Part shown: positions 1,404-13,721 of the stretch, one piece after another | How the letters are laid out: each line of letters begins with the position of its first letter | Numbering within the stretch: the first letter of the stretch is position 1 | Source: a virus | Taxonomy: Duplodnaviria; Heunggongvirae; Uroviricota; Caudoviricetes | Direction: 5' to 3' (one strand) | Virus record (IMG/VR): IMGVR_UViG_3300044984_001938 | Length of the DNA stretch: 64,000 nt | Notes under the pieces: model-generated | Seen by the model: only the letters and a program-made list of their open reading frames with translations | What the model was told of the DNA's origin: nothing | Databases searched by the model: none | Translations under genes and position numbers: made by a program

Positions 1404-1448
1404 GATTTAATCCTTATTATGTATTTATCAATAGGGATCAAATCAGCC

Positions 1449-1775: not shown

Positions 1776-1826
1776 TTTTATTCCTTAATACATGCATATT
1801 TATTCAATATCGTGTGTGGTGCTATT

Positions 1827-3656
1827 TTAAGTAAAATAGGGGTCTACAATGACTAGTGTACCATCTTTTCGTTGCATGACATTCTCAGTATGTAAGTCCC
1901 ACCTTAATCCACTTTCAAGACCAAGCCGATATAGTCTACTCATTGTTTGATACAATATTCCATATTGTTTATTAATCAATGGATCTGCTAATTTTTCAGT
2001 AACTGATTGAGGCATATTAGCCATACTAGGTTCAAGTTCCCAAGTCTCTGGTTTCTTCATCCTATTAACGACAGTATTCCAAGGTGCTCCGCCCTTGGCT
2101 TCGTCACTGAGCAACCACACCATTGCCTCTTCAAAACTATTATTCGGTATGGACTGTAGTCTCTCCATTGCAATTTGTCTATAGGGAACACCATTGAGTT
2201 TAAATACAGTATGATGTTCTCCACCAATAGCTATGAATTTTGGCAAGTTAGGTAACTCCGGATGATCTTTACAGAAGTTGTAAAATGCCAAGAATCCCCG
2301 TTCAGCATCTTGTGCTGGTCCGGGAACTGCTCTAGATGGCATTAAAATTTTAACCACTGACCCTTCATCCTTTGACCAAACAGTTGCATCTTGACCAGAA
2401 CCTAACATGGTATATTTAAGTTGCTTCAATCTATCAAAAATCTGCAGGCTATTGTCAGTTTGAGTTTCATATTCATTTAGTGTTTCCTCGTTGGCGTCTT
2501 GTTCTAATTCTGCTTCGTCAACCGGACTCTTTGTTGCCCAAAAAGTTTTCCCCAATGCAGTTTGTTTGCTGCTCGGTAAAATATCATTTCCCAATTCTTT
2601 AGCAAATTTATACATAGCAGTAGCTATCCCACGCCTTCTATGTTTGTTATCAACATGCAAATCAAGAGCCTCGATATGATCGTCTTTAATTTCAAAATTA
2701 ACCCAACTCACTTGGTTCTTTCCAACAAATGTTTTTATAGTAAATTGTTCACTGGGTTCATTGAATTTTTGATGCAGAAGAAATCTCCCGGGTGTGGCTA
2801 CCATTGTATATTTGCCAAAAGTTTTTACTTTTTCAAACCCACGCTTGAAAATATCTGGGTTAACTTTTTCAACGACCGTTTCGTCATTATCACTTTGCTC
2901 TAAATCTGCTAAATCAACATAATTGATAGGCACCCCCTTAATTGCAGCAGCTAACGCACGATGATTACCATCAATAATTCTGTTATCTGCCACTACAATA
3001 ACTTTACTTGCTAGTGCTGGATCATTAGTATATGATTGTACAATTGCTTGTTGGTCATCATCCAACATATCAGTTATTTCATCAATATGTTCTACCCGAT
3101 ATTGACCAAGCAATGTAATCATTACTTTATGTCTTTGTAATGTTTGAATAGTTAATGGTTTATCAAACTCATGCGGAGATACATAGTCCCAAAATTGGTC
3201 ATCACGATCTGGATAGTTACCTCCGTATAGTTGAGCTAGAGTAGTAGAGTTAGTCCCATCTTCTTTCATTAGATGCTGTGCATCACCTGACTTCTCCCAT
3301 GCTGCCCACATTGCCTTCCCGTCAGGCGATTGCTCTCTACTGGGACGAACATCATTGCCTAACATTTTGGCGTATGCGTACATTGTACTAGCAACACCAA
3401 ACTTTCTATACTTTTCAGCTACCCATGTGTTCACGCTTTCCAAATGACCGTCACCGCTATCTTGATTTATCTTAAACAAAGCATGAGCAATGCGAGTATA
3501 TCTATTAAAAACATTTACTCGTAACAAATTTCCACCATAGTCGCTTTCGCCAGCCTCTGCCGTGTAAGTAAAATTGCCGATTTCTTGAGTATCTGTAAAT
3601 CTTAGATCACGGATATCTGGATTAATTTCCTCGTTTATGAATTCTTTTGCTCTCAT
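1827..3656 (-). CDS. CTS-like-tagged multidomain protein: GNAT-like, ParB/Srx-like nuclease and protein-kinase-like C-terminal domains
   Basis: The N-terminus MRAKEFINEE resembles the T4 capsid-targeting sequence. VIVVADNRIIDGNHRALAAA is a ParB N-terminal-like motif. HRRRGIATAMYKFAKELGND and TMYAYAKMLGND are GNAT-like acetyl-CoA-binding motifs. The C-terminus has a Gly-rich loop (GSGQDATVWSKD) and DLHTENVM resembling the kinase catalytic loop. Confidence 0.6.
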   Translation of the reverse strand: MRAKEFINEEINPDIRDLRFTDTQEIGNFTYTAEAGESDYGGNLLRVNVFNRYTRIAHALFKINQDSGDGHLESVNTWVAEKYRKFGVASTMYAYAKMLGNDVRPSREQSPDGKAMWAAWEKSGDAQHLMKEDGTNSTTLAQLYGGNYPDRDDQFWDYVSPHEFDKPLTIQTLQRHKVMITLLGQYRVEHIDEITDMLDDDQQAIVQSYTNDPALASKVIVVADNRIIDGNHRALAAAIKGVPINYVDLADLEQSDNDETVVEKVNPDIFKRGFEKVKTFGKYTMVATPGRFLLHQKFNEPSEQFTIKTFVGKNQVSWVNFEIKDDHIEALDLHVDNKHRRRGIATAMYKFAKELGNDILPSSKQTALGKTFWATKSPVDEAELEQDANEETLNEYETQTDNSLQIFDRLKQLKYTMLGSGQDATVWSKDEGSVVKILMPSRAVPGPAQDAERGFLAFYNFCKDHPELPNLPKFIAIGGEHHTVFKLNGVPYRQIAMERLQSIPNNSFEEAMVWLLSDEAKGGAPWNTVVNRMKKPETWELEPSMANMPQSVTEKLADPLINKQYGILYQTMSRLYRLGLESGLRWDLHTENVMQRKDGTLVIVDPYFT

Positions 3657-4345
3657 TAGTTGGCTCTTTCCGGATCATACATCGGGTGATCTTGATTATA
3701 TTGCTGTCTTACTCTCACAGGAACATTGTATTGAGTTTTTTGATAACCTAGTTCTTGTTTAACTTCTGTTCTTGGGTCACGCAATATAGCATCCCATGTT
3801 GCTTTCATTTTGGGATCCTTAAACCAATTATTCTGCATCAATTTATCATTGACCGATACATCATAATGCTGATCCGGATCATCACCAGGTTTGTAGCTAT
3901 AGCGATACATGGGATGCTCACCAGGCGGGGTTGGCTTTATGGTGCGCTTTTTAGGCAACCATATTTGAATCTTTTTCACATATTTTCTAAATGGTTTCAA
4001 TCCACCTTTGATCAATGTTTCAAATCTATCTGTGTCTAGGGAATCGTCTCGGCGTTGAAATTCGTCTCTGGCATCTTCGGGTGGTTCACCTTTGAACCAA
4101 TCAGTGCCGGGCATTCTTTTGCGTCCTATGTCTCTACGCAACAAATCTTGGTCTAATGTGAATATTACACCACCGCTATCAAAGTTTTTCAAGTACCCAA
4201 GTGCATAGTTATAATTGCGGGTAGTGCTGACATCCTTACCTAATCCCATTTTATCATTATGCCACATTTGTAGCATACTAGGTATGCTAGTAGCATGATA
4301 TAAATCGGCTGCTTGCAATTCGTTTAGAAATTCTTTTGCTCTCAT
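3656..4345 (-). CDS. CTS-like-tagged hypothetical protein (putative head-internal protein)
   Basis: The N-terminus MRAKEFLNELQ belongs to the same family as the neighbouring genes. The ATG overlaps the stop of the upstream gene (ATGA). Confidence 0.5.
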   Translation of the reverse strand: MRAKEFLNELQAADLYHATSIPSMLQMWHNDKMGLGKDVSTTRNYNYALGYLKNFDSGGVIFTLDQDLLRRDIGRKRMPGTDWFKGEPPEDARDEFQRRDDSLDTDRFETLIKGGLKPFRKYVKKIQIWLPKKRTIKPTPPGEHPMYRYSYKPGDDPDQHYDVSVNDKLMQNNWFKDPKMKATWDAILRDPRTEVKQELGYQKTQYNVPVRVRQQYNQDHPMYDPERAN

Positions 4346-5208
4346 TACATTACAAAAATTTGCCCCACTGAACTTGATAATACATCATCAAACATATATT
4401 TCATATCGTTTGCTAGTGTTTGGGTAGCCTCTGCCCTTTCGCCTTCATCACGATATTCAGGTTTGATGTTCATATACTTACTAGAATTGCCCCAGTTCTT
4501 ACGGCCATAACCCAAGTTGCCTGGTAATGGGTTGAATGAAACAGTACCAGTACCTAAATACTGTGCAAAAAGTTCGTATAGAAATTCATATGGTCGTTTG
4601 ATTTCACCACCGCGACTACTACGCTGTGTGCCAATTGCATTAAATAGTGCGTTGTATTCAGGTGTTAGGTCCCATTTAATAGCAGTGCTATAGGTAGTTG
4701 CCCCGCGATATACTTTACCGTAATATTCTTCTAACATAGTATTGACTGCTGTAAAGAAATGTTTTTCTGCTTCTGCCCATGTACTCCATTGACTTTTTCC
4801 ACGAGTACCGGCTTGAATAGCATGACCAAATCTATGTGCCATGATCCATGGTGTCATCATCACTTTACTATCACCACTGTTACCAACAAAAACCACAGTG
4901 ATTGCATCTTCGCTGCCATCTATAATCGGTTGTGCTTGTTCGCCAAACATCTGTTGAAGTTGTTGTGCATTGACAGGGCCAGTCTCCTTGTACTTACCTG
5001 TGCCAGGTATGTTACTAAAGAACAATCTAAAATCGTATGGAGTTCTCTCAAAGAACTTTGCTGTCTTTAATTGATTAGTAGGATGCGGCACTAATCGCTT
5101 GTCAACACCTCTGAATGGTCCGGGTTTATCAAAGTCGCCCATTGGGGTGAATTGTTTAAGTGCCATCTCATCGACGGTGTTCTCTGATATAAAGTCATTT
5201 GCTCTCAT
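4345..5208 (-). CDS. CTS-like-tagged hypothetical protein
   Basis: The N-terminus MRANDFISEN fits the family. A HRFGH motif raises the possibility of a metal-binding or hydrolase site. Function is unknown. Confidence 0.5.
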   Translation of the reverse strand: MRANDFISENTVDEMALKQFTPMGDFDKPGPFRGVDKRLVPHPTNQLKTAKFFERTPYDFRLFFSNIPGTGKYKETGPVNAQQLQQMFGEQAQPIIDGSEDAITVVFVGNSGDSKVMMTPWIMAHRFGHAIQAGTRGKSQWSTWAEAEKHFFTAVNTMLEEYYGKVYRGATTYSTAIKWDLTPEYNALFNAIGTQRSSRGGEIKRPYEFLYELFAQYLGTGTVSFNPLPGNLGYGRKNWGNSSKYMNIKPEYRDEGERAEATQTLANDMKYMFDDVLSSSVGQIFVM

Positions 5209-5690
5209 TATAGTCCAATCTTGCCTGGATACATTGGGCCAGTTTCAATTTGTTCACCACCATCAAAGTACTTTATCTCAATGGGCATGGTCTGCCAGTT
5301 TAATCTATCAGCAGCCATGATACGATGATTACCTTCGTTGACCCAGGCTTCGCCATTGTAAGCTACCATGATGTATGGTAAGTATTCATTATCTGTACTA
5401 GACGACATGGGTGGCAATTTACCAGTCTTTTTCATGTAATCCATTAACCATGCCAAGTCATCTTTACGCACCTTGAGTTGTTCATTACGCAACCCCGGCA
5501 ATGAAGCCAAAACCTTTACACTTACACGAGGTGGTGTTCCTTTAACATAAGCGGTAGTACTACCAAAATGCGGTGCACCAAAACTGTCACGACCTTTGCG
5601 TTGAGCATATTCTATTTTACCTTGTAACCAATCCTCATTGGGAACATCTATCCTCAGGGTACCTTCAGTGATGAATTCATTTGATCTCAT
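5208..5690 (-). CDS. CTS-like-tagged ParB/Srx-like domain protein
   Basis: The N-terminus is MRSNEFITEG. VNEGNHRIMAADRL is a ParB N-terminal-like (DGNHR-type) motif. Confidence 0.5.
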   Translation of the reverse strand: MRSNEFITEGTLRIDVPNEDWLQGKIEYAQRKGRDSFGAPHFGSTTAYVKGTPPRVSVKVLASLPGLRNEQLKVRKDDLAWLMDYMKKTGKLPPMSSSTDNEYLPYIMVAYNGEAWVNEGNHRIMAADRLNWQTMPIEIKYFDGGEQIETGPMYPGKIGL

Positions 5691-5694
5691 TATA

Positions 5695-6252
5695 CTATTT
5701 ATAGGGTTTGGCCCACCTGGTATTGATCACATTCCAGTTTATGATCTTCCACTGTTCGGTTAAATACTTTTTCTTGTCTGAACCGTAGTCCAATATCCAG
5801 GCGTGTTCCCATCGGTCAACTAATAACAATATATCATCGCGTACTTCATGGTTCTTGATCGTTTTAATCTTACCATCAGTCGCTAAGTATACCCAACCCG
5901 ATCCTTCTAACTTCATAAATTCAGTTTCAAATTCAGACTTCATGTTATCATAATCACCATAGTGCTTATTGATGAATCCAAACATAGGGCCGTTGGGTTT
6001 GTTATTGTTTCTTACTTCACGGAATTGAGGGAATAAGGTGTTATGCAAAAAAGCACCTGCATAGTTGAAATCTCTGTCACCCTCTTTTTTGTTGTAGCGT
6101 TCAGCGTAACCGTGGGCTAGTTTCCCGTAGTGTAGATCCAATGTATCTTTGGATAGAACGGGACTAACTTCAGCCGGAGTGAAGTTTAGTGGTATAATTT
6201 CTATGTCTTGCGGTTTACTCTTTTCCTCAAGTAACTGGATTAAATGTCGCAT
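5695..6252 (-). CDS. Fe/Mn superoxide dismutase-like protein
   Basis: All four canonical metal-ligand positions are recognisable: LHYGKLAH and FLHNTLF (His), and DRWEHAWILDY (Asp and His), ending in NWNVINTRW. This is SOD_Fe_N plus SOD_Fe_C-like architecture at about 185 aa. Confidence 0.6.
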   Translation of the reverse strand: MRHLIQLLEEKSKPQDIEIIPLNFTPAEVSPVLSKDTLDLHYGKLAHGYAERYNKKEGDRDFNYAGAFLHNTLFPQFREVRNNNKPNGPMFGFINKHYGDYDNMKSEFETEFMKLEGSGWVYLATDGKIKTIKNHEVRDDILLLVDRWEHAWILDYGSDKKKYLTEQWKIINWNVINTRWAKPYK

Positions 6253-6276
6253 AATATGTATTTATGCGTTGTCGTC

Positions 6277-6489
6277 TTAAAGACGCCTAATTATTCTTCC
6301 CTTAGACAAATCATAAGGTGAAAATTCTACTGAAACTGTATCACCTAGTAATATTTTAATATCGTTCTTACGCATACGACCACTGATGTAACCAGTAACT
6401 ACATTACTTAGATTCATCTGTACTTTGAACATGGCATTGGGTAATACATCAATTACCTTGCCATCCATCTTAATTCCTTCTTCTTTCAT
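6277..6489 (-). CDS. infA: translation initiation factor IF-1
   Basis: 70 aa. The sequence is near-colinear with bacterial IF-1 (DGKVIDVLPNAMFKV...ISGRMRKN.IKILLGD.V.VE.SPYDLSKGRI). Confidence 0.9.
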   Translation of the reverse strand: MKEEGIKMDGKVIDVLPNAMFKVQMNLSNVVTGYISGRMRKNDIKILLGDTVSVEFSPYDLSKGRIIRRL

Positions 6490-6512
6490 TTAGTTTATTA
6501 AACTCCTTTTAA

Positions 6513-6908
6513 TTATCTACGCATCCGTGCAATATCAATTGCATCTTGGTCACAGAACACCGGTACTGCGTTGCTCTTGTGAAGTTGACCAACCCCTAAC
6601 ATCTTCGTTCCTGTATATTTTGGTGATGGTTTGCTAGATACAGGACCAGAATGCCCGGTATCTAAACTCTTAATGTGATGTGTGTTTGTACGACCTACTG
6701 GGGTACTAAGTGAATAGATCAATGGTTCTGCTGCCATTGCTCGTTTTTGTTTCTTTAGCCCCTGCTCAACACCCCATTTTTTCTGTAGGGTGTGCCAGTC
6801 AGATGCTAGTTCACGATGTTTTTGTGCTTCCTCAGCATTGCGAAACTTGACTTTACCTTTGCTTTTGCCGCCCATTGATAATGCGGGGTGCATCATGTGC
6901 ATAGTCAT
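6513..6908 (-). CDS. hypothetical basic protein
   Basis: 131-aa ORF that tiles with its neighbours on the coding strand. No recognisable motif. Confidence 0.4.
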   Translation of the reverse strand: MTMHMMHPALSMGGKSKGKVKFRNAEEAQKHRELASDWHTLQKKWGVEQGLKKQKRAMAAEPLIYSLSTPVGRTNTHHIKSLDTGHSGPVSSKPSPKYTGTKMLGVGQLHKSNAVPVFCDQDAIDIARMRR

Positions 6909-6969
6909 ATAGATAGAAACATAGTTAATGTGACTGTAGTATAGCAGAAAGAGGATTTATCGTCAATCA

Positions 6970-7347
6970 TTATCGTTTTAGGGTTGCCCAAATCTGTTCT
7001 TTTTCAATGATTTCAGCTTCTAATTCCATATACGCTTTACGCAATCCACGCAAGTTTTCCCATTTTTCTTCTAGTCTTTCATTGGGATGTAGTATCGCTA
7101 ATCGTTCTTCAATCTTAGTCAATGACTCATTTAGACTTTTACCTTTAATTTTAATATCACCTTCAAACTCAGCATCACCTTTAACTTGCATTACTCCCGT
7201 GCCGATCGTACCGGGTTTAATAGTAAGTGAATCCATCCAATAAGGTGAGGCAGTTGTGTTAGTAGTAAAAACTAAGGCAGTACTATTAGGTGAAGTGTAA
7301 GTACCTAAAGTATCGGTGGCAGTTGATTGTTGAATGTTGTAGGTCAT
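6970..7347 (-). CDS. hypothetical coiled-coil protein
   Basis: 125 aa with a charged heptad-like C-terminal half. Confidence 0.4.
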   Translation of the reverse strand: MTYNIQQSTATDTLGTYTSPNSTALVFTTNTTASPYWMDSLTIKPGTIGTGVMQVKGDAEFEGDIKIKGKSLNESLTKIEERLAILHPNERLEEKWENLRGLRKAYMELEAEIIEKEQIWATLKR

Positions 7348-7532
7348 GTTTTCTTTAATATGTAACGGCCCGCCTCATCAAAACCAATTTCAATGTTGTC
7401 TCCCTCTTTCCAACCCATTTTATCTAATAATGCCTGTGGAATAGGTAATAGTAAATCATCTTCACTATCAGGGCTTGGTTGCGTTATTACTTCATAACGC
7501 ATTTTTTCTTGTCCGGGATTAGGTTTAGCCAT
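7344..7532 (-). CDS. AbrB/MazE-like (SpoVT-AbrB swapped-hairpin) small protein
   Basis: LPIPQALLDKMGWKEGDNIEIGFDEAGRYILKK resembles the swapped-hairpin domain of AbrB/MazE-type DNA binders. It overlaps the upstream gene by ATGA. Confidence 0.4.
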   Translation of the reverse strand: MAKPNPGQEKMRYEVITQPSPDSEDDLLLPIPQALLDKMGWKEGDNIEIGFDEAGRYILKKT

Positions 7533-7563
7533 ACATTAGTATACTATATTAGTATAAGGATAC

Positions 7564-8130
7564 TCAAGTTTTATGGATATACGGTCCATAAATCTTTTCC
7601 AGTTCATGGATAGTTTGTGCAGTATTAGCATCTTCATGCTTAACCGCGATACCACCTGCGTTGCTCCATGCTTCTAAATACTTACCAAAATCATCTACCA
7701 AAACATTTGGTTCACCATCTTGTGTGGCGTATTTGAACTTTCCACTGGTGAAAATAGCTTCACCACTTGTACCCGGATTATATTGATCTAACCAGTGTTT
7801 TTTACCGTCAATGCTGCTTTGCTTAAACGGGCCTCGTAACGGAGCAGACAACACAGTATAGGGAATCTTGTTATCTTTCAGCCACATGATAATACGCATT
7901 CCACCGGTCAATGGTTTCAAGTCTTTGAAAAATTGATAAATTTGTTCTGGACTAGAATTTGCTAATTCGTTGATAGCTTCTTCCGGATTTGGGATTGCTT
8001 TATAAGTTGAAACATTGTGTTTTTGTGCCCATGCTCCAAAAAAATCCGCTTGTACACCGTCCATATCTAGATACAAATGTGGCATTTTCGCTTCAGCCGT
8101 ATCTTCTAATAATTCTCTTATTTGCATCAT
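7564..8130 (-). CDS. 5'(3')-deoxyribonucleotidase, HAD superfamily
   Basis: The N-terminal LYLDMDGVQADF matches the DxDGV HAD motif I of 5'-nucleotidases. The protein is about 188 aa. Confidence 0.6.
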   Translation of the reverse strand: MMQIRELLEDTAEAKMPHLYLDMDGVQADFFGAWAQKHNVSTYKAIPNPEEAINELANSSPEQIYQFFKDLKPLTGGMRIIMWLKDNKIPYTVLSAPLRGPFKQSSIDGKKHWLDQYNPGTSGEAIFTSGKFKYATQDGEPNVLVDDFGKYLEAWSNAGGIAVKHEDANTAQTIHELEKIYGPYIHKT

Positions 8131-8250
8131 AATATTTATCTGTAATTGAGTTTAGACTATTTTAACACTAAATACATGATATGTAACATAATAAGGAAAA
8201 ATGCATGGTATTAAGGTGAGTAAACCATAATATTTAACATAAATACAACT

Positions 8251-9081
8251 ATGAAACAATTACTCACACTCCTAATATTGCTGTTCTCGGCACTTGTCTA
8301 TGCACAATCTCCAACTTCAACAGTACCACTTTCCCCGGATATAGCCGCAATTAAGAAGAAAAATGTCTTGGTTGTAGCAATGACCAAAAAAGATAACCCT
8401 CCCTTCTTTAGTGGGGATGAAAAAAACATACGCGGGCTAGATGTTGAAATTGCTCAACGCATAGGGGTATTACTTGGGGTGCCTGTGGAATTTCGCAGAG
8501 ATGCAGAAAGTTTTGCCGATGTAGTTGAACAAGTTAGGTCTGGTGCCGCAGATGTTGCAGTAAGTAAACTGTCAATCACAGGTCCAAGACTACTTACAGT
8601 TCGCTTTAGTGATCCGTACATCAAACTCAAGCAAGCAATGATTATTAATCGCTTATGGCTAAGTCAACACGGTCAAGGCCGAGAAGTGTATGAAGTGATT
8701 AGAACATTTAACGGCAAGATATCTTTCATCCGTAACAGTAGTTATGATACATTTGCCCGTGCAAATTTCCCCAAAGCAATATATACTCCCGAAGATAGTT
8801 GGGATACGATTGTCAATAATGTAACTAGCGGTGCAATTGCTGCTGGATATAGAGATGAGTTTGAAATTAAGAAAATCTCATTTGAAAAGCCTAATGCAGC
8901 AATTACTACAAAAACTGTAACTATTTCTGACTCTATTGATAATATTGCAGTTGCAGTAAATATTAACTCACCCCAACTACTAAGCATAGTAAACTATGTA
9001 ATTAAAAATGATTACAGTAATATTGACACTAAAAAGTTAATGGACCGATACAAGGCTGAAAAGTCTCCTGTAAAGAAATAA
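8251..9081 (+). CDS. secreted periplasmic solute-binding protein (SBP family 3, amino-acid-binding-like)
   Basis: The signal peptide is MKQLLTLLILLFSALVYAQSP. Size (276 aa) and the VAMTKKDNPPFF..GLDVEIAQ..GV pattern are typical of polar-amino-acid-binding proteins. Confidence 0.5.
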   Translation: MKQLLTLLILLFSALVYAQSPTSTVPLSPDIAAIKKKNVLVVAMTKKDNPPFFSGDEKNIRGLDVEIAQRIGVLLGVPVEFRRDAESFADVVEQVRSGAADVAVSKLSITGPRLLTVRFSDPYIKLKQAMIINRLWLSQHGQGREVYEVIRTFNGKISFIRNSSYDTFARANFPKAIYTPEDSWDTIVNNVTSGAIAAGYRDEFEIKKISFEKPNAAITTKTVTISDSIDNIAVAVNINSPQLLSIVNYVIKNDYSNIDTKKLMDRYKAEKSPVKK

Positions 9082-9093
9082 TTAGGAAATAAA

Positions 9094-10380
9094 ATGAAAT
9101 TTAATTTAAAAAACTTCTTATCTAGTCCGTGGACTATTTTAGGATCAATCATAATCGGAGTGTTGGCAGGAGTACATGCACCTGCATTAAGTATGAACTT
9201 TGAAAGTGTTGGTGGAATTTACATTAGCTTGCTTAAAGTTGTTGTAGTACCTTTCTTGCTTGCAACAATTTTAGTTGGGGTTGTTAGTCTTTTACAGAAA
9301 GAAGGCAGCGCCGCAATGATACGAAAGATTATCATAGGCTTCATTGCAAGTATGTTCATTGCCGCAGTGATAGGAGTTGGTACTGTTGCTGTTACCGGCA
9401 GTGAAATGACACCTGCAAAACAATCTCAACTTGGTGCAATTGTCAACGATAAAGATTCTGGTAGTGATCTAAACATCACTCTAACAGAACCCATGCCCAA
9501 GGCTCCACATATTGATCCAATACTGATGGCACAAAAGTTTATTCCGGAAAACATCTTTAACACCCTGGCTGCAGGTGAAAGTTTAAAGATTGTTATCTTT
9601 TGTTTGATATTTGGTATTGCACTGGGCAATATTAAAAGTTCTGGACAAGAAATGCTAGTAGATGTATTGAAAAGTGTACAACAGGCCAGCATCAGTATCT
9701 TTAAGTTTTTAAACTACTTTCTACCGTTTGCTTTATTAGCAATGATCAGCAGTCAAGTTGGTAAAGTTGGAGTTGGCATATTCTTGACCATGGTTGAGTT
9801 TATCATGCAACAAGCAATTGGTGGATTCTTAATTATTGCACTAGGTACTGTTGTCATCTGGAAGCGTTCAGGTCTTAGCTTGATGACTGTTATTCGTGAA
9901 ACCAAAGAAACACTAATTGTTGCGGTTAGCTCACGCAGTAGTTTAGCATGTATCCCATACGCACAAGAAGCATTGCATAAGTTGAAATTTGACAAAACAG
10001 GTGTTGAGTTAACTGTTCCGCTGAGTTTTACAGTTAATCGTATTGGTAGTATTGCGTATTATGCAATTGCCACAGTGTTTATTGCCAACATTTATGGGGC
10101 TCCAATGGGAGTAACCGGGTTGTTAGTTGTATTGTTTGGTAGTATTCTTGCTGGGCTAGCCAGTGCAGGTACAACAGGTATTCTTACAGTTGCTACCGTA
10201 GCAGTTGTTTGTGATTTATTAAAACTTCCAAGTGAAGCAGTATTGGTATTGTTGATTGCAGTTGATCCATTAATGGACATGATTCGTACAGCAAGCCATG
10301 TACACGGTAATGTGGCTGTGACCGCTTTCGTGTGTGATAAAGAGCCAGAATATGGACAAGATCAAAGAGTTACTGCTTAG
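9094..10380 (+). CDS. dicarboxylate/amino acid:cation symporter (DAACS, GltP/GltT-like)
   Basis: 428 aa polytopic membrane protein. The glycine-rich hydrophobic segments and the DPLMDMIRTASHVHGNVAV region are typical of sodium:dicarboxylate symporters. Confidence 0.65.
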   Translation: MKFNLKNFLSSPWTILGSIIIGVLAGVHAPALSMNFESVGGIYISLLKVVVVPFLLATILVGVVSLLQKEGSAAMIRKIIIGFIASMFIAAVIGVGTVAVTGSEMTPAKQSQLGAIVNDKDSGSDLNITLTEPMPKAPHIDPILMAQKFIPENIFNTLAAGESLKIVIFCLIFGIALGNIKSSGQEMLVDVLKSVQQASISIFKFLNYFLPFALLAMISSQVGKVGVGIFLTMVEFIMQQAIGGFLIIALGTVVIWKRSGLSLMTVIRETKETLIVAVSSRSSLACIPYAQEALHKLKFDKTGVELTVPLSFTVNRIGSIAYYAIATVFIANIYGAPMGVTGLLVVLFGSILAGLASAGTTGILTVATVAVVCDLLKLPSEAVLVLLIAVDPLMDMIRTASHVHGNVAVTAFVCDKEPEYGQDQRVTA

Positions 10381-10957
10381 TTTATTAAACTACATAGGTG
10401 AAAGTCCATTTCGCTTATTCACGGTTATTCTATTATGTGTACTGGGATTTGGCGGATGGATCATATACTCAGAAAAAGATGCGTTTATTGCTAGTTATCG
10501 GGCTCAACAGGCCATGCCAAAGATGAATGGCCGATATGAGGATGCACATAACTTTTTGCTGAAAAACACCACTGCTGAAATGGTGGCTATATTAGAAGTA
10601 AATACACTTTCAAATACAAGAAAAATAGCATTTTTATCTACCCGCGGCGCCGGTAGAGATAAAAATCACGATGGTGTTAATGTTGGGTTGTTCTCAAAAA
10701 ATTATGATAACAACACCGATGTGATCAGTTTAATGTCGGGTAAAATTCCCTGTAGTTCATATCTCAAACCGCAAAGTTTGATTGGATTTGTATATCGTGA
10801 TTATGGGGTGAATTTCATGTGCAGAATCAGTGTACCGGCTGAACCCGGTGTTTTCATTGGACAAATAAGTGTGGGTTGGAAAGAACCCCCAGACAACATA
10901 GAAGAAATTCAAACCGCTATGATGATTGCTTCTTCAATACTGTATAGTAAGAAATGA
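10352..10957 (+). CDS. hypothetical membrane-anchored protein
   Basis: The ORF 10334-10957 has one N-terminal TM helix (FRLFTVILLCVLGFGGWIIY) followed by a soluble domain. The start is ambiguous. It overlaps the symporter end. Confidence 0.35.
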   Translation: MDKIKELLLSLLNYIGESPFRLFTVILLCVLGFGGWIIYSEKDAFIASYRAQQAMPKMNGRYEDAHNFLLKNTTAEMVAILEVNTLSNTRKIAFLSTRGAGRDKNHDGVNVGLFSKNYDNNTDVISLMSGKIPCSSYLKPQSLIGFVYRDYGVNFMCRISVPAEPGVFIGQISVGWKEPPDNIEEIQTAMMIASSILYSKK

Positions 10958-11012
10958 TACTTCCTTCTATTATCAGTGTTGTGTTACTAGTGATACTAAT
11001 ATTGGTGTTAAT

Positions 11013-11726
11013 ATGAGCAAGCGGCTTGGTGTATTGGGTGGTATGGGGCCTGCTGCTTCAGCCGAATTTATGGTAAGACTGATTGCTCAAACTCCGGCAA
11101 AGCGTGACCAAGACCATATCCCTGCAATTCTTTGGAGCGACACCACAGTTCCAGACCGTAGCACTAGTATGCGAAATGGTGATGACAAACCGTTACCCTA
11201 CCTGTTAGCGGGAATACAAGGATTAATATCAACCGGTTGTAATATAATTGTTATACCATGCAATACTGCACATTTTTGGTTTAACGAAATGGAAAAACAA
11301 GCATCGTGGCATGCTAAAATTGCTCATATTGTAGATAGTGTTGCAGATGCATTAAGAGACATAAAAGTTACTAATGCTAAAATAGGCGTCATGGGTACAC
11401 AAGCAACTATTGAGTTGGGTATGTATCAGTACCGTCTAAATAAGTTAGGTTGGGATTGTATTGCACCGACTAAAGAAGAAATGGATACACTAGTACAGCC
11501 TGCCATTGATTTAATTAAAGCCAATCAGATTGCAGAAGCATATCCAATGTTAATGACTGTAATTCATAGTCTTATTGACAAAGGAGCAAAAGCAGTGGTA
11601 TTAGGCTGCACTGAAATACCACTGTCTATTAAAGAAGATACAGTACAGGATACACCAATAATTAACAGCATTGACAGTTTAGTAAAGTCTGTTATTAAAG
11701 AATTCAAAAAGGGGAAACTAACATGA
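11013..11726 (+). CDS. aspartate/glutamate racemase family protein
   Basis: MSKRLGVLGGMGPAASAEF is the racemase N-terminal motif, and the second catalytic Cys sits in VVLGCTEIPL. The internal Met was chosen as the start because the track ORF at 10926 overlaps the upstream gene. Confidence 0.75.
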   Translation: MSKRLGVLGGMGPAASAEFMVRLIAQTPAKRDQDHIPAILWSDTTVPDRSTSMRNGDDKPLPYLLAGIQGLISTGCNIIVIPCNTAHFWFNEMEKQASWHAKIAHIVDSVADALRDIKVTNAKIGVMGTQATIELGMYQYRLNKLGWDCIAPTKEEMDTLVQPAIDLIKANQIAEAYPMLMTVIHSLIDKGAKAVVLGCTEIPLSIKEDTVQDTPIINSIDSLVKSVIKEFKKGKLT

Positions 11727-12049
11727 ACTTATCATCGGTTATATTTGTAATCGCAGTATTTGCCTCAGGTGGTGTTTTCGCACAAGCAAAAAGTCCCGAA
11801 GAACTTGTGAATGTGAAAATAGCATGTTATGATACTGATATACTAATTAAAACATTACTTGATACACATAAAGAGTATCCCATACTTATGGGGATAACCG
11901 ACGATAACGCAAATTCCACTATGGCAGTTTGGATAAACTTTAGAACTAAAACATGGACTATAGTTGCTACTAAGGAAAAGGTAAGCTGTGTTATTGTATC
12001 AGGTAAGGGAATAGAATTAGTTCCATATAAAAAGGAACCAATGATTTGA
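11723..12049 (+). CDS. small secreted hypothetical protein
   Basis: 108 aa with signal peptide MNLSSVIFVIAVFASGGVFAQA. ATGA overlap with the racemase gene. Confidence 0.4.
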   Translation: MNLSSVIFVIAVFASGGVFAQAKSPEELVNVKIACYDTDILIKTLLDTHKEYPILMGITDDNANSTMAVWINFRTKTWTIVATKEKVSCVIVSGKGIELVPYKKEPMI

Positions 12050-12783
12050 AGAAAACTGTACTATTTTTGCTATTAGCCGCATCCCAATGTGTAACTTATG
12101 CACAATCCAATTTAACGGCTCAAGCATGGTTGATTGCAGATGCTAATGGTGCAATACTTGAGGGTGTGCATACCACTGAGGTTAGGGCTATTGCTAGTAT
12201 AACTAAATTAATGACAAGTATGGTTGTATTAGATAGTGGGCAATCATTAACTGAAACAATTCCCAAGAAACTTTACAATAGAAAATTCACCAGACAAGAA
12301 TTATTCAATTTAGCAATTGTTAAATCAGACAACAATGCTGCTAGAATGTTATGCGAATACTATCCTGGTGGAGTTAAAAAATGTGTTGAAGCAATGAATA
12401 CAAAAGCTAGTTCATTAGCTATGAATAATAGCCGGTTTACTGACCCAACTGGGTTGTTTAACACCAATGTAAGTACCGCAGAAGATTTAGTTAAATTAGT
12501 AATGGCTGCAAAGAATTACCCAATCATCACTAATGCAAGTAATACATCAATCATTAAATGGAAAATCAATAAGAAGAAATCTGCGGTCTTTCACAATACT
12601 AACAGGCTAGTGGGCAAAGGTGTTGATTTTATAGTAAGTAAAACAGGATGGATAACTGCCAGTGGCGGATGTATTGTTATGATGTTACAGGGTGAGCAGG
12701 GTATTAGGACTGTAATCCTATTAGGTAGCAAGAATACACAGACACGCATCCCAGAAGCGTATATGTTATCTAAGCTACATTAA
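12046..12783 (+). CDS. D-alanyl-D-alanine carboxypeptidase / serine beta-lactamase-fold protein (peptidase S11-like)
   Basis: It has a signal peptide plus the three penicillin-binding-protein motifs in order: SITKLMT (SxxK), SDNNAAR (SxN) and KTGWIT (KTG). Confidence 0.75.
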   Translation: MKKTVLFLLLAASQCVTYAQSNLTAQAWLIADANGAILEGVHTTEVRAIASITKLMTSMVVLDSGQSLTETIPKKLYNRKFTRQELFNLAIVKSDNNAARMLCEYYPGGVKKCVEAMNTKASSLAMNNSRFTDPTGLFNTNVSTAEDLVKLVMAAKNYPIITNASNTSIIKWKINKKKSAVFHNTNRLVGKGVDFIVSKTGWITASGGCIVMMLQGEQGIRTVILLGSKNTQTRIPEAYMLSKLH

Positions 12784-13034
12784 TTCCGCTTGGGGGTATA
12801 ATCTACTCCTGCTACGGGAGTAAAGTCTTTGGTTAGATTGTTTACCATATCTTCACCGTACTTCAATGTAAGCATACTGAAGTTTTGATCATTGCCGTCT
12901 TTTTTCAGACCAATCATAAAATATTGATACCAGCGTATTTTAGGATTGGCAAACTTCTTAACAATATTGTCTTTTTCAATATCATCAAAATTATTATTTT
13001 CACGGTAAAAAGTATAATATTTCATTGTTTCCAC
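12780..13034 (-). CDS. hypothetical protein
   Basis: 84-aa ORF on the coding strand. Confidence 0.35.
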   Translation of the reverse strand: METMKYYTFYRENNNFDDIEKDNIVKKFANPKIRWYQYFMIGLKKDGNDQNFSMLTLKYGEDMVNNLTKDFTPVAGVDYTPKRN

Positions 13035-13222
13035 AACACAAAAGCTGTGTAGTCTCGTTCTTTTTCAAAGTAAAATTCATACATGCCACCATCACGCCCT
13101 GCAGGTATCAAGCAAGTATAACCCCATTCACCAATACAGTTTCTCTCTAACCAACTAGTCATTGGTCTTAATTTGCCATAATCAATAATGATTTCAGACT
13201 TAAGATTTGTGTTTAGTAACAA
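13022..13222 (-). CDS. hypothetical protein
   Basis: 66-aa ORF. Confidence 0.3.
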   Translation of the reverse strand: MLLNTNLKSEIIIDYGKLRPMTSWLERNCIGEWGYTCLIPAGRDGGMYEFYFEKERDYTAFVLWKQ

Positions 13223-13721
13223 CTACACCACTCTTTTCTAGGAATTCAATTCCAGCTGGATCTCTATAAGTATTGCGATAGTAAAGACTATTGATACCAC
13301 TTTGATAAATCAACTTAGCGCAATTGATACATGGTGCATGAGTACAAAACATTGTTGCACCCTCGCTAGATTCTGTGCTTGCGGACACTTTCATTAGGGC
13401 GTTACTTTCTGAATGGAGGACCTCTGGTTTAGTTTTCAACCGATAGCGCCTGGCATATCCCAAGTCAGGCTCTATATCATCTTCAACAAAAGGCCATTGT
13501 TCATTAATTTCTTCAGGGGCTAGCCATCCACCAGCATCACCACTCATGTATTCAACACTTTCACAATTGTTATCCCATCCACTTGGCATGCCATTAAATC
13601 CACTTGCAAGGATTTTGTTACCCTTGACAATTACTGATCCAACTTGTAGGCGTTTAGCATAACTCAATGTACTAGTGAGTTCTGCTATCTGCATGTAATA
13701 ATTTACAAATTTTTGCTTCAT
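13200..13721 (-). CDS. dCMP deaminase (cytidine/deoxycytidylate deaminase family)
   Basis: The zinc motifs HSESNAL (H[AC]E) and HAPCINCAKLI (PCxxC) are present, at the size of a dCMP deaminase. Confidence 0.7.
   Translation of the reverse strand: MKQKFVNYYMQIAELTSTLSYAKRLQVGSVIVKGNKILASGFNGMPSGWDNNCESVEYMSGDAGGWLAPEEINEQWPFVEDDIEPDLGYARRYRLKTKPEVLHSESNALMKVSASTESSEGATMFCTHAPCINCAKLIYQSGINSLYYRNTYRDPAGIEFLEKSGVVVTKHKS

What the first reader, a model, noticed from the sequence alone, without database searches (positions are those of the whole stretch)
8251..12783. Plus-strand island encoding a secreted D-amino-acid / cell-wall module (SBP, Glu/Asp symporter, Asp/Glu racemase, DD-carboxypeptidase)
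Six co-oriented genes run opposite to the surrounding phage genes. At least four carry signal peptides or TM segments. The combination of an Asp/Glu racemase, a penicillin-binding-protein-fold DD-carboxypeptidase (SxxK, SxN and KTG all present) and a Glu/Asp transporter with its binding protein looks like a host-derived cassette for D-Asp or D-Glu supply and peptidoglycan trimming. That is unusual cargo for a virulent phage. It could remodel the host wall during infection or lysis, or block superinfection.
Basis: partly seen in the sequence, partly recalled or inferred. Interest (0 to 1): 0.75.

Follow-up and report, generated by a model that had tools for sequence, protein, structure and literature searches.

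The report
Jumbo-phage aspartate-uptake, holin-like and wall-peptidase genes
A 4.5-kb block in an uncultured ~350-kb aquatic phage is real and native, but it is two separately inherited gene sets: an amino-acid uptake-plus-racemase operon copied long ago from bacteria, now carrying a holin-like membrane protein, and a cell-wall endopeptidase pair.

Summary
Six co-oriented plus-strand genes lie at 8251-12783 between minus-strand phage genes, and every domain and motif call is verified.

The block is not a chimera or a recent import. Six independent assemblies share its junctions, and its GC and codon usage match the flanks.

It is not one module.
- **Core, SBP-SDF-X201-racemase.** This rigid unit occurs in about 50 viral contigs, between 25 different neighbour pairs. 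Without X201 it matches a bacterial operon in gene order: family-3 binding protein, unusual DAACS symporter, Asp-type racemase (35-47% identity per gene). The closest studied system is the bacterial racD-aspT D-aspartate utilisation module. The likely job is scavenging acidic amino acids, with D-Asp converted to L-Asp.
- **S108 plus S11.** S11 is a PbpG/PBP7-type DD-endopeptidase rather than a carboxypeptidase. The pair sits beside dCMP deaminase in about 45 related phages, usually without the core.

A NCBIfam "cysteate racemase" call failed a control. The substrate, any SBP-symporter coupling and the role of X201 remain untested.

The parts
7564..8130 (-). Left anchor, not part of the island: 5'-deoxyribonucleotidase (NT5C).
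   Evidence: phrog_2643 2.7e-21. PF06941 in the precomputed gene tables. The same gene flanks S108-S11 in L083/L084, which have no core.
8131..8250 (.). 120-bp divergent intergenic region between NT5C (-) and the SBP gene (+). Presumed to hold the island's promoter.
   Evidence: Sequence read. The consensus promoter scan was not above shuffled expectation, so the promoter role is inference only.
8251..9081 (+). Periplasmic family-3 solute-binding protein (SBP, 276 aa) with a cleavable signal peptide. First gene of the 4-gene core.
   Evidence: Pfam SBP_bac_3 1.3e-17. Best solved relatives are amino-acid ABC binding proteins (4h5f). The S-I-T-G-P-R and R-D-E-F stretches align to them; these are the positions I recall as the ligand carboxylate- and amino-binding residues. 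68-87% identical in about 49 viral loci, always directly upstream of the SDF gene. 35-44% identical to the SBP genes upstream of the nearest cellular SDF genes.
9094..10380 (+). DAACS/SDF-family secondary transporter (428 aa) of an atypical 'R-type' subfamily.
   Evidence: Pfam SDF 2.3e-64. Below the cut-offs of GltP, DctA and SstT. Aligned to solved aspartate transporters, by GltPh numbering recalled from my own knowledge: HP1 SSRSS is kept; NMDGT becomes NRIGS; D394, R397 and T398 are kept; N401 becomes H; D405 becomes N. The same signature occurs in the cellular operon homologues and in more than 100 of 127 nearest representative clusters. The phage clade collapses to one 50%-identity cluster, and the nearest other sequence is 42% identical.
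10352..10957 (+). X201 (201 aa): single-pass membrane protein with a GAF-like C-terminal domain. It has the architecture of T4 holin T (class III holin). Its start overlaps the SDF stop by 29 nt.
11013..11726 (+). Cytoplasmic PLP-independent aspartate-type amino-acid racemase (237 aa). Last gene of the core.
   Evidence: Pfam Asp_Glu_race 3.8e-38. TIGR00035 159 bits, above its cut-off of 93. Best solved relatives are 3s7z and P. horikoshii AspR 1jfl. C82, C194, R48, K164 and T124 (PhAspR numbering) are invariant in 41 distinct phage copies and 4 cellular operon copies. The NF052483 'cysteate racemase' hit (221.7 bits, cut-off 190) is not discriminating, because true AspR 1jfl scores 249.6.
11723..12049 (+). 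S108 (108 aa): small secreted protein with two invariant Cys and no known family. First gene of the second module.
   Evidence: No Pfam or PDB hit; phrog_25396, function unknown. C35 and C89 are invariant in 12 divergent members. It directly precedes S11 in 42 viral loci and a Hydrolase_2 wall hydrolase in 6, and it directly follows X201 in 3.
12046..12783 (+). S11 (245 aa): secreted PbpG/PBP7-type DD-endopeptidase (penicillin-binding fold). Its stop overlaps the stop of the convergent gene 12780-13034 by 4 nt.
   Evidence: Pfam Peptidase_S11 4.7e-37. The best NCBIfam match is the D-alanyl-D-alanine endopeptidase model NF008668, at 154.9 bits, below its cut-off of 294. Best solved relatives are DD-endopeptidases 6azi and 6muq. 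SITK, SDN and KTG are invariant. 252 viral stretches encode relatives.
12780..13721 (-). Right anchor, not part of the island: an 84-aa gene, a 66-aa gene and dCMP deaminase.
   Evidence: dCMP deaminase phrog_174 1.5e-46. The arrangement 'S108 > S11 > | < orf84 < dCMP deaminase' is conserved in about 45 of 80 S11 loci.

Best explanation
The island is a native, composite set of envelope-directed accessory genes. It sits in a variable slot between the NT5C nucleotidase and dCMP deaminase genes of an uncultured, roughly 350-kb aquatic jumbo phage related to RaK2, Atu_ph07 and Vibrio 2.275.O.

**Part 1: SBP, SDF and racemase.** This is the phage copy of a widespread bacterial three-gene operon.
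- The periplasmic family-3 binding protein captures an acidic amino acid.
- The atypical DAACS symporter carries it across the inner membrane. The symporter keeps the amino- and side-chain-carboxylate-binding residues D394 and R397, but lacks the Na+-site residues of GltPh.
- The two-cysteine racemase interconverts the enantiomers in the cytoplasm.
- By analogy with the experimentally studied racD-aspT systems, the most likely use is scavenging of external D/L-aspartate. D-Asp would be turned into L-Asp for nitrogen, carbon and nucleotide synthesis in the infected cell.

**Part 2: X201.** This phage-only protein is inserted between the symporter and racemase genes. It has the architecture and fold of T4 holin T. 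It is either the phage's holin or a holin paralogue, and its link to transport is unknown.

**Part 3: S108 and the PbpG-like DD-endopeptidase.** This separately inherited pair is exported to the periplasm. There the enzyme would cut D-Ala-mDAP cross-links, for wall loosening or lysis.

**Status of the evidence.** Shown: gene content, homology, synteny, motif conservation, independent inheritance and native composition. Inferred: substrate, direction of flux, SBP-symporter coupling, holin activity and the role of the endopeptidase.
For: **Native, not a chimera**
- Identical junctions in at least six independent JGI assemblies.
- GC 0.378 against 0.387 and GC3 0.293 against 0.314 for the rest of the window.
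- Codon-usage distance is 0.386, below the null mean of 0.455; 44 of 57 same-size blocks deviate more.

**Phage context**
- The DNA polymerase is 43-48% identical to those of Phosso, Vibrio 2.275.O, Atu_ph07 and RaK2.
- Related contigs are 331-364 kb long.

**The core is a unit**
- 40 of 42 X201 genes with room on both sides lie in SBP-SDF-X201-RAC.
- That unit lies between 25 different neighbour-family pairs.

**Cellular counterpart**
- The five cellular SDF clusters examined, drawn from the ten nearest, all have a homologous SBP gene directly upstream. Four have an Asp_Glu racemase directly downstream, several with 4-nt overlaps.
- These contigs range in GC from 0.34 to 0.67 and carry bacterial neighbours (RND pump, TctC, cytochromes).
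- No ABC permease or ATPase is listed in the tables.
- Per-gene identity to the phage is 35-47% for all three genes.
- The cyanobacterial variant replaces the racemase with a 3-hydroxyaspartate-dehydratase-like PLP enzyme, which is again aspartate-type chemistry.

**Substrate class**
- D394, R397 and T398 are kept in the symporter.
- Racemase residues C82, C194, R48 and K164 are invariant.
- The SBP keeps amino-acid-type ligand residues.

**Precedent**
- DAACS transporters plus RacD give D-Asp-dependent growth in A. baylyi. DarR activates racD and an adjacent transporter gene in A. fischeri (review PMC13631041).
- A marine isolate induces its Asp racemase 104-fold on D-Asp. Free D-Asp is a measurable share of dissolved amino acids (PMC6965332).

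**X201**.

**Separate second module**.

**Endopeptidase type**.
Against: - No assay exists, so the substrate could be Glu, cysteate, 3-hydroxy-Asp or another acidic amino acid.
- The racemase is reversible, so the direction of flux is not given by sequence.
- The symporter lacks the canonical NMDGT motif and belongs to a subfamily with no characterised member that I could identify. I could not compare it with A. baylyi AspT or A. fischeri VF_1546.
- SBPs are not known partners of DAACS transporters.
- The tight, conserved embedding of a holin-like gene inside a nutrient-uptake operon has no obvious rationale under a pure scavenging model.
- The value to a phage of a late-acting uptake system is unclear, because expression timing is unknown.
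- In the window's own lineage and three relatives the two modules do lie close together. A functional link between them is therefore not excluded.
Confidence: 0.6

Rival explanations
1. All six genes form one pathway that makes D-Asp or D-Glu from imported L-amino acid and uses it, together with the DD-peptidase, to remodel host peptidoglycan. The purpose would be lysis, wall loosening or superinfection exclusion.
For: - All products except the racemase are envelope-targeted.
- The third gene is holin-like.
- Relatives of the island sit among wall hydrolases (GH19, Hydrolase_2) and other envelope genes.
- The cyanobacterial SBP homologue carries a PG_binding_1 domain.
- In the window lineage, and in L054, L067, L070 and L103, both modules lie within a few kb of each other.
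Against: - The core and S108-S11 are inherited independently. About 45 of 80 S11 loci keep the dCMP-deaminase frame, and only 4 of the 80 have any core gene within 6 kb. The two sets are about 200 kb apart in a 349-kb genome, and L083 is an 'empty site'.
- The bacterial trio never includes a wall enzyme.
- An importer plus binding protein is the layout of uptake and catabolism, not of precursor supply.
- No D-Asp ligase or Mur-type enzyme lies in the island.
- The S11 partner can be swapped for an unrelated hydrolase (Hydrolase_2) in other loci.
Confidence: 0.12
2. Cysteate module. The symporter imports L-cysteate and the racemase (CuyB-like) converts it to D-cysteate. A host CuyA sulfo-lyase then cleaves this to pyruvate, sulfite and ammonium.
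For: - The racemase and five divergent phage copies score 213-222 bits on NCBIfam NF052483 'cysteate racemase CuyB', above its cut-off of 190.
- The B. wadsworthia cuy cluster contains an SDF transporter next to CuyB (PMC11193023).
- Cysteate is an aspartate analogue, so D394 and R397 would fit it as well.
Against: - Control: the biochemically established P. horikoshii aspartate racemase scores 249.6 bits on the same model, and Salmonella 3s7z scores 229. The model therefore does not separate CuyB from AspR.
- No CuyA or RidA lies in the island.
- No fold-type-II PLP enzyme was detectable in 1.77 Mb of related loci plus the window. This was a tblastn probe of limited sensitivity.
- None of the racemase-containing cellular trios shows a listed PALP gene.
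- The one PALP neighbour, in the cyanobacterium, matches 3-hydroxyaspartate dehydratases rather than D-cysteine desulfhydrase or CuyA.
Confidence: 0.12
3. Lysis-timing sensor. The SBP reports a periplasmic ligand, for example D-amino acids released from lysed neighbours, to the periplasmic GAF-like domain of the T-like holin X201. This would parallel antiholin RI acting on T4 holin T. The symporter and racemase would clear or process the signal.
For: - X201 is embedded in the operon, with overlapping start and stop codons, in 40 of 42 cases.
- X201 has a T-holin-like fold and architecture.
- The SBP has no ABC partner in any context.
Against: - The idea is purely inferential.
- The bacterial trio works without X201.
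- X201 relatives also occur alone in unrelated small phages and in T4-like phages.
- No interaction evidence of any kind exists.
Confidence: 0.06
4. Artefact or very recent host DNA: an assembly chimera or a fresh horizontal acquisition of a bacterial fragment.
For: The block has inverted strand polarity and cellular-type domains.
Against: - The same junctions occur in at least six independent assemblies and in IMG/VR.
- GC, GC3 and codon usage are indistinguishable from the rest of the window.
- The nearest cellular homologues are only 35-47% identical.
- Two of the six genes belong to phage-only families.
Confidence: 0.01

Closest known systems
Bacterial D-aspartate utilisation modules: racD-aspT of Acinetobacter baylyi ADP1, and DarR-regulated racD plus adjacent transporter of Aliivibrio fischeri (as summarised in PMC13631041)
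   Same: A PLP-independent aspartate racemase is encoded next to a DAACS-family transporter. In those bacteria the logic of uptake followed by racemisation to the usable enantiomer has been shown experimentally.
   Different: - The phage and its nearest cellular relatives add a family-3 periplasmic binding protein.
- They use a DAACS subfamily without the NMDGT motif.
- No LysR regulator (DarR) lies in the island.
- The phage version has a holin-like gene inserted.
Cysteate dissimilation cluster of Bilophila wadsworthia (SDF transporter, CuyB racemase, CuyA, RidA; PMC11193023)
   Same: An SDF transporter lies next to a racemase of the same PF01177 family. The phage racemase passes the NCBIfam CuyB cut-off.
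   Different: There is no CuyA or RidA. The CuyB model also accepts a true aspartate racemase. The phage operon adds a binding protein.
Phage-encoded nutrient-uptake genes such as cyanophage PstS, a phosphate-binding protein (from my own knowledge, not checked here)
   Same: A virus carries a periplasmic binding protein to boost uptake of a limiting nutrient during infection.
   Different: Here the virus carries the whole path: binder, membrane transporter and converting enzyme. The substrate is an amino acid, and the transporter is secondary rather than ABC.
T4 holin T (class III holin) and its antiholin RI (PDB 6pxe)
   Different: Sequence similarity is marginal (hhalign 78%; no hmmsearch hit). 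The second Cys is at a different place. X201 lies inside a transporter operon, not next to an endolysin or antiholin. No RI homologue was recognised.
E. coli PBP7 (PbpG) and solved DD-endopeptidases 6azi and 6muq
   Same: S11 has the same fold and the SxxK, SxN and KTG motifs. It has a signal peptide and lacks the C-terminal domain of PBP5-type carboxypeptidases.
   Different: S11 is shorter (245 aa), with loop deletions. It scores below the NCBIfam equivalog cut-off (155 against 294 bits). It is phage-encoded and always preceded by the small secreted S108 protein.
Binding-protein-dependent secondary transporters (TRAP and TTT families; from my own knowledge)
   Same: A periplasmic binding-protein gene is conserved and translationally coupled with a secondary-transporter gene, with no ABC components nearby.
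   Different: The membrane component is a DAACS/SDF protein, not DctQM or TctAB. The binder is of family 3 (the ABC amino-acid type). Functional dependence is not shown.

Membership tests
racD-aspT type D-aspartate utilisation module | PLP-independent Asp racemase with two catalytic cysteines | tested here: met
   C82 and C194, plus R48 and K164 (PhAspR numbering), are invariant in 41 phage and 4 cellular copies. TIGR00035 scores 159 bits, above its cut-off of 93.
racD-aspT type D-aspartate utilisation module | DAACS-family transporter encoded next to the racemase | tested here: met
   SDF 2.3e-64. The transporter gene is adjacent in about 50 viral loci and in 4 of 5 examined cellular clusters. 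In the phage, X201 lies between the two genes.
racD-aspT type D-aspartate utilisation module | D-Asp-responsive LysR regulator (DarR) controlling the genes | tested here: not met
   None of the six island genes has a DNA-binding domain. Regulation by a host factor cannot be excluded.
racD-aspT type D-aspartate utilisation module | Demonstrated D-Asp transport and racemisation; orthology to RacD and AspT | not testable with these tools
   No assays were possible, and the reference sequences were not in the accessible collections.
CuyB/CuyA cysteate pathway | Racemase passes the CuyB equivalog model NF052483 | tested here: inconclusive
   The score is 221.7 bits, above the cut-off of 190. True AspR 1jfl scores 249.6 on the same model, so the model does not discriminate.
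CuyB/CuyA cysteate pathway | Adjacent D-cysteate sulfo-lyase CuyA (PF00291), with or without RidA | tested here: not met
   Neither is in the island or in the precomputed Pfam tables of related loci. No PALP-like hit was found in 1.77 Mb of loci, in a test of limited sensitivity.
Glutamate/aspartate symporters of GltP/GltPh type (DAACS) | SDF fold with the HP1 serine motif and TM8 residues D394 and R397 | tested here: met
   SSRSS, D, R and T are aligned to solved aspartate transporters.
Glutamate/aspartate symporters of GltP/GltPh type (DAACS) | NMDGT motif and Na+-site residues D312, N401 and D405; equivalog score | tested here: not met
   The motif reads NRIGS; N401 is H and D405 is N. GltP scores 122 bits against a cut-off of 638. 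It is therefore a member of the superfamily but not of the characterised GltP/GltPh group.
Family-3 binding proteins of ABC amino-acid importers | SBP_bac_3 fold with a signal peptide | tested here: met
   the signal peptide is read.
Family-3 binding proteins of ABC amino-acid importers | Cognate ABC permease and ATPase genes | tested here: not met
   None lies in the island. None is listed in the Pfam tables of the viral or cellular loci.
TRAP / TTT binding-protein-dependent secondary transporters | DctQM or TctAB membrane components | tested here: not met
   The membrane protein is SDF. Only the 'binder plus secondary carrier' logic is shared.
Class III holin (T4 T) | One N-proximal TM helix followed by a large periplasmic domain, about 200-220 aa in total | tested here: met
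   The AF2 model has helices 2-16 and 21-53, then an alpha/beta domain from 62 to 197.
Class III holin (T4 T) | Periplasmic domain with the fold of T4 T | tested here: met
Class III holin (T4 T) | Sequence homology to the T family | tested here: inconclusive
   hhalign gives 78.5% at E 1.7e-5 over 179 columns. hmmsearch against PDB sequences finds nothing, and there is no Pfam hit.
Class III holin (T4 T) | Hole formation, and control by an antiholin | not testable with these tools
   This needs lysis assays. No RI-like gene was recognised.
PbpG/PBP7 DD-endopeptidase (Peptidase S11) | SxxK, SxN and KTG active-site motifs | tested here: met
   SITK, SDN and KTG align to 6azi and 6muq and are invariant in four phage copies.
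PbpG/PBP7 DD-endopeptidase (Peptidase S11) | Single-domain enzyme without the PBP5-type C-terminal domain; secreted | tested here: met
   It is 245 aa long. It matches profile positions 37-273 of 316 in NF008668, and its best structures are endopeptidases. The signal peptide is read.
PbpG/PBP7 DD-endopeptidase (Peptidase S11) | NCBIfam equivalog cut-off | tested here: not met
   The score is 154.9 bits against a cut-off of 294. It is a divergent relative, not an equivalog.

The most novel reading that the evidence does not exclude
The family-3 binding protein and the R-type DAACS carrier form a new, third kind of binding-protein-dependent secondary transporter. In the carrier the Na+-site residues are replaced and an invariant Arg sits in the NMDGT position. 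The jumbo phages have wired a T-type holin into this operon. The ligand-loaded binding protein would then act on the holin's periplasmic GAF-like domain, as antiholin RI does in T4. Lysis timing would respond to D-amino acids released from lysed neighbours.
Probability: 0.06. Interest if true: 0.85.

Novelty: new variant of a known kind. Interest (0 to 1): 0.55.

Why it matters
- **A complete uptake path on a virus.** If the core works as inferred, a widespread clade of aquatic jumbo phages carries binder, carrier and racemase for an acidic amino acid, probably D/L-aspartate. That would extend virus-driven nutrient acquisition, known for phosphate, to the D-amino-acid pool of dissolved organic matter.
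- **An uncharacterised transporter subfamily.** The comparison exposes a large DAACS subfamily whose genes are consistently coupled to a binding-protein gene in bacteria of very different GC content. This is a testable candidate for a new class of binding-protein-dependent secondary transporter.
- **A holin-like gene inside a transport operon.** The conserved insertion is odd enough to deserve an experiment.
- **An annotation hazard.** The NCBIfam "cysteate racemase" model accepts a true aspartate racemase.

Tried and rejected
- **Nucleotide searches.** Near and distant searches of the island, and of 24 kb of the window, against GenBank phages found nothing.
- **Protein searches in GenBank phages.** Searches with the racemase, S11 and SDF hit only mislabelled bacterial contigs or short gut fragments, at 37% identity or less.
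- **Chimera or recent transfer.** Rejected on independent assemblies and codon usage.
- **"Cysteate racemase" naming.** Rejected as a diagnosis after the control with 1jfl and 3s7z.
- **First AF2 run of X201.** It used 13 close homologues and failed (pLDDT 42.6). A second family search supplied diversity and fixed this.
- **Sequence searches for X201.** Pfam at E<=10 and a profile search against PDB sequences gave nothing.
- **S108.** A profile search against PDB and PHROGs gave no function.
- **afdb50 fold library.** It was not available.
- **Promoter and terminator scan.** It was not above shuffled expectation for promoters and gave no usable terminator at the island edges.
- **tRNA scan.** No tRNA genes in the window.
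- **Search for a PALP/CuyA-like gene.** None was found in 1.77 Mb of related loci.
- **Literature.** Searches for phage-borne Asp racemase, DAACS or PbpG found no report.
- **X201 as a transporter accessory subunit.** I considered this idea. It is weakened because X201 relatives occur alone in unrelated phages.

Full report
**1. The observation**

The ORF list shows six co-oriented + strand genes that fill 8251-12783 with almost no spacing:
- 8251-9081
- 9094-10380
- 10352-10957, which overlaps the previous gene by 29 nt
- 11013-11726
- 11723-12049
- 12046-12783

Everything from 303 to 8130 and from 12780 to about 25059 is on the - strand.

Pfam confirms SBP_bac_3 (1.3e-17), SDF (2.3e-64), Asp_Glu_race (3.8e-38) and Peptidase_S11 (4.7e-37). 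The third and fifth genes have no Pfam family.

On alignment to solved DD-endopeptidases, the SxxK (SITK), SxN (SDN) and KTG motifs of the last gene are in register. They are invariant in four phage copies that are 52-65% identical. Both catalytic cysteines of the racemase align to the P. horikoshii aspartate racemase.

Signal peptides on genes 1, 5 and 6, one TM helix in gene 3, and the polytopic gene 2 can be read directly from the translations.

**2. The genome and the artefact question**

- *Phage identity.* The window has a T4-type DNA polymerase. It is 43-48% identical to those of Sinorhizobium phage Phosso, Vibrio phage 2.275.O, Atu_ph07 and the RaK2 group. It also has dCMP deaminase and a deoxyribonucleotidase. 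There is no nucleotide match to any GenBank phage.
- *Independent assemblies.* The exact SBP protein is on record in 29 blocks of the collection. Six independent JGI assemblies are shown, and they have the same gene order across both junctions.
- *Composition.* GC is 0.378 against 0.387, and GC3 is 0.293 against 0.314. The codon-usage distance of the island to the rest of the window is 0.386, smaller than for most same-sized blocks of the window itself. The null mean is 0.455, and 44 of 57 blocks deviate more.

The island is therefore neither an assembly chimera nor a recent import.

**3. The island is two modules**

A search with the unnamed third protein, X201, returned 574 relatives, nearly all from metagenomes. 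A scan of one genome for each of 185,579 species found it once, on a 2,980-bp MAG contig. IMG/VR gave 60 contigs, several of them 331-353 kb long.

tblastn of all six proteins on those loci shows SBP-SDF-X201-racemase as a rigid unit. Identities are SBP 68-87%, SDF 69-93%, X201 60-85% and racemase 55-86%. Of 42 X201 genes with room on both sides, 40 are in the complete unit. That unit sits between 25 different pairs of neighbour families.

S108 and S11 accompany the core only in the window's own type and, in other positions or orientations, in a few relatives.

The reverse scan with S11 found 252 viral stretches.
- In about 45 of the best 80 loci, the order 'S108 > S11 > | < 84-aa gene < dCMP deaminase' is conserved.
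- Only 4 of the 80 have any core gene within 6 kb.
- In the 348,701-bp contig 3300023174_000038, the core and S11 are about 200 kb apart.
- L083 and L084 have exactly the window's frame: NT5C on the - strand, then S108-S11, then the convergent genes and dCMP deaminase. A 178-aa DUF4337 membrane protein sits where the window has the four core genes.

The six-gene island is therefore a juxtaposition in a variable slot, not one inherited cassette.

**4. Origin and likely function of the core**

Scoring the symporter against 1.84 billion representative proteins collapses the phage clade to one cluster. The next sequence is only 42% identical. I looked up the genomic places of five cellular clusters from the ten nearest.
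- All five have a homologous family-3 binding-protein gene directly upstream.
- Four have an Asp_Glu racemase directly downstream, several with 4-nt overlaps.
- They lie on contigs of GC 0.34-0.67. Neighbours include an RND pump, cytochromes, TctC and a transposase.
- No ABC permease or ATPase is listed in the tables.
- All three phage proteins find their best partners in these same operons, at 35-47% identity.
- In a cyanobacterial genome the racemase is replaced by a PLP enzyme closest to 3-hydroxyaspartate dehydratases, and the binder carries a PG_binding_1 domain.

The phage core is thus the en-bloc homologue of a widespread bacterial operon, with X201 added. None of the cellular operons has X201.

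Residue-level checks point to an acidic amino acid as substrate. The GltPh and PhAspR residue numbers and their functional roles come from my own knowledge of the literature. The alignments come from the tools.
- The symporter keeps the HP1 serine motif and TM8 residues D394, R397 and T398, which bind the amino group and side-chain carboxylate in GltPh. The alignment is to solved aspartate transporters.
- The racemase keeps C82, C194, R48 and K164 in 41 distinct phage copies.
- The binder keeps amino-acid-type ligand residues.

The closest experimentally studied systems are the D-aspartate utilisation modules. In A. baylyi, DAACS transporters plus RacD allow growth on D-Asp. In A. fischeri, DarR activates racD and an adjacent transporter gene (PMC13631041). 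In a marine isolate the Asp racemase is induced 104-fold by D-Asp and is active in vitro, and free D-Asp is a measurable share of dissolved amino acids (PMC6965332).

I therefore take uptake followed by racemisation, for metabolic use in the infected cell, as the most likely function. Aspartate feeds purine and pyrimidine synthesis, and the island lies among nucleotide-metabolism genes. That last link is inference only.

**5. The cysteate lead and its control**

NCBIfam names the racemase 'cysteate racemase CuyB' at 221.7 bits, above the cut-off of 190. The B. wadsworthia cuy cluster does pair an SDF transporter with CuyB (PMC11193023).

As a control I scored the characterised P. horikoshii aspartate racemase and Salmonella 3s7z on the same model. 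They score 249.6 and 229 bits, so the model does not separate the two activities.

No CuyA or RidA is present in the island or in the related loci. A tblastn probe with a fold-type-II PLP enzyme found nothing in 1.77 Mb. Cysteate remains possible but is not favoured.

**6. An atypical transporter**

In the phage and in all the operon-linked cellular homologues, the hallmark NMDGT motif reads xR(I/L/F/Y)G(S/P). N401 and D405 are also replaced.

Among the 127 full-length representatives in the top 150, none has NMDGT, and more than 100 have Arg at the M311 position. This is a large subfamily, and I could not identify a characterised member.

This signature comes with three other observations:
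- an invariably adjacent binder gene;
- translational coupling between the two genes;
- no ABC components nearby.

Together they suggest, but do not show, that the binder serves the secondary carrier.

**7. X201**

A first AF2 run on close homologues failed (pLDDT 42.6). A second family search, started from a 29%-identical relative in a spring-water phage, returned 1,341 proteins. With a 37-sequence alignment the model reached pLDDT 80.7. It shows an N-terminal helix, one long TM helix, then an alpha/beta domain.

- Foldseek on viral models hits annotated class III/T holins and uncharacterised proteins of RaK2 and GAP32.
- I recalled the T4 T sequence from memory and verified it at 100% identity to the T4 record. 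A profile-profile comparison with nine T holins gives 78.5% probability, E 1.7e-5, over 179 collinear columns. X201 C157 aligns with T4 C175.
- A plain profile search of PDB sequences finds nothing.

I conclude that X201 is a T-holin-like protein. Whether it forms holes is untested.

Relatives occur alone next to a terminase or a DNA polymerase in other phages, and near a lysozyme in the spring-water phage.

**8. The second module**

S11 is closest to PbpG/PBP7-type DD-endopeptidases and lacks the C-terminal domain of PBP5-type carboxypeptidases. The relevant scores are NF008668 at 155 bits, below its cut-off of 294, and PDB 6azi and 6muq.

S108 is a small secreted protein with two invariant cysteines and no detectable relatives of known function. 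Its family precedes S11 in 42 loci and an unrelated wall hydrolase (Hydrolase_2) in six. It directly follows X201 in three. That pattern hints at a role with lysis enzymes, but nothing more can be said.

Neighbouring genes in relatives include a GH19 lysozyme-like protein, porins and other envelope proteins.

**9. Verdict**

The reading of a single D-amino-acid/cell-wall pathway is not supported by comparative evidence.

The best-supported picture has three parts:
- a phage-adapted bacterial operon for uptake and racemisation of an aspartate-like amino acid;
- an inserted holin-like gene;
- a separately inherited DD-endopeptidase pair.

No report of such phage genes was found. I rate it a new variant of known kinds (viral nutrient-uptake genes, and racD-aspT modules), with moderate interest. 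The open points are the transporter subfamily, the conserved holin-like insertion and the substrate.

Noticed in passing
window 5695-6252 (-), 6277-6489 (-), 1449-1775 (-): Just upstream of the island the phage encodes three host-like proteins, according to the precomputed Pfam tables for identical contigs. They are a Fe/Mn superoxide-dismutase-like protein (Sod_Fe_C), a 70-aa IF1/eIF-1a-like protein and an Fe-S biosynthesis (HesB/IscA-like) protein. This is unusual cargo for a phage.
   Followed up: no
window 1827-3656 (-): A 609-aa protein gives a weak match to the T7-type protein kinase / host-transcription inhibitor family (phrog_15752, 4.4e-6). It also has a faint acetyltransferase hit.
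   Followed up: no
NCBIfam model NF052483 (no window coordinates): The 'cysteate racemase CuyB' equivalog model, with a cut-off of 190 bits, is passed by the biochemically characterised P. horikoshii aspartate racemase (249.6 bits) and by Salmonella 3s7z (229 bits). Automatic 'cysteate racemase' names are therefore unreliable.
   Followed up: yes
L153, L154, L157, L159, L160; representatives P0121-P0270: There is a large DAACS subfamily with xRxG(S/P) in place of NMDGT, and with N401 and D405 replaced. Among the top 150 representatives, none has NMDGT. All five examined members have a family-3 binding-protein gene directly upstream and no ABC genes nearby.
   Followed up: partly
L154-L156 (cyanobacterium GCA_000380225.1), locus 3694-7344: This variant operon reads: 3-hydroxyaspartate-dehydratase-like PLP enzyme, then PG_binding_1+SBP_bac_3 fusion, then R-type SDF. 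The binder appears to be tethered to peptidoglycan.
   Followed up: partly
L024/L054 and L094/L111 (IMGVR_UViG_3300027749_002876, 524,565 bp): One IMG/VR contig carries two diverged copies of the core (X201 at 76% and 66% identity to the window) and two of S11 (65% and 61%). This could be a true duplication in a larger genome, or a join of two related phages.
   Followed up: no
L010 (JAPLOJ010000301.1, Lake Pavin MAG contig, 2,980 bp): This contig is the only hit for X201 among 185,579 species genomes. Its SDF fragment is 99% identical to the window, but its X201 is only 72% identical. It looks like a mis-binned phage fragment with a recombination mosaic.
   Followed up: no
L017 and L022, gene after the racemase; P0390 on the 345,154-bp contig: There are second T-holin-like paralogues. 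One is an extra X201-family gene with a Lys/Pro-rich N-terminal extension, directly after the racemase. The other is a member of the 1,341-protein sister family, on a contig of the same length as a core-bearing IMG/VR genome.
   Followed up: partly
L009 12324-13229, L024 12421-13305 and other relatives: The related jumbo phages encode Gram-negative porins (Porin_4, 4.7e-21). They also encode very large secreted Ser/Thr/Asn-rich proteins close to the core.
   Followed up: no
window 12780-12783: The stop codon region of S11 (+) and that of the convergent 84-aa gene (-) overlap by 4 nt, which leaves no room for a terminator between convergent genes. The same tail-to-tail arrangement is conserved in about 45 loci.
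   Followed up: no
GenBank 'phage' records CAKLQH02/CAKLQF02 (Acinetobacter phage MD-2021a), AGRM01/AFYI01 (Salmonella): Several records in the phage collection are evidently bacterial genome contigs of 57-690 kb. They carry pbpG, gltP, dctA and ygeA, and they produce misleading 'phage' hits for host-type genes.
   Followed up: no
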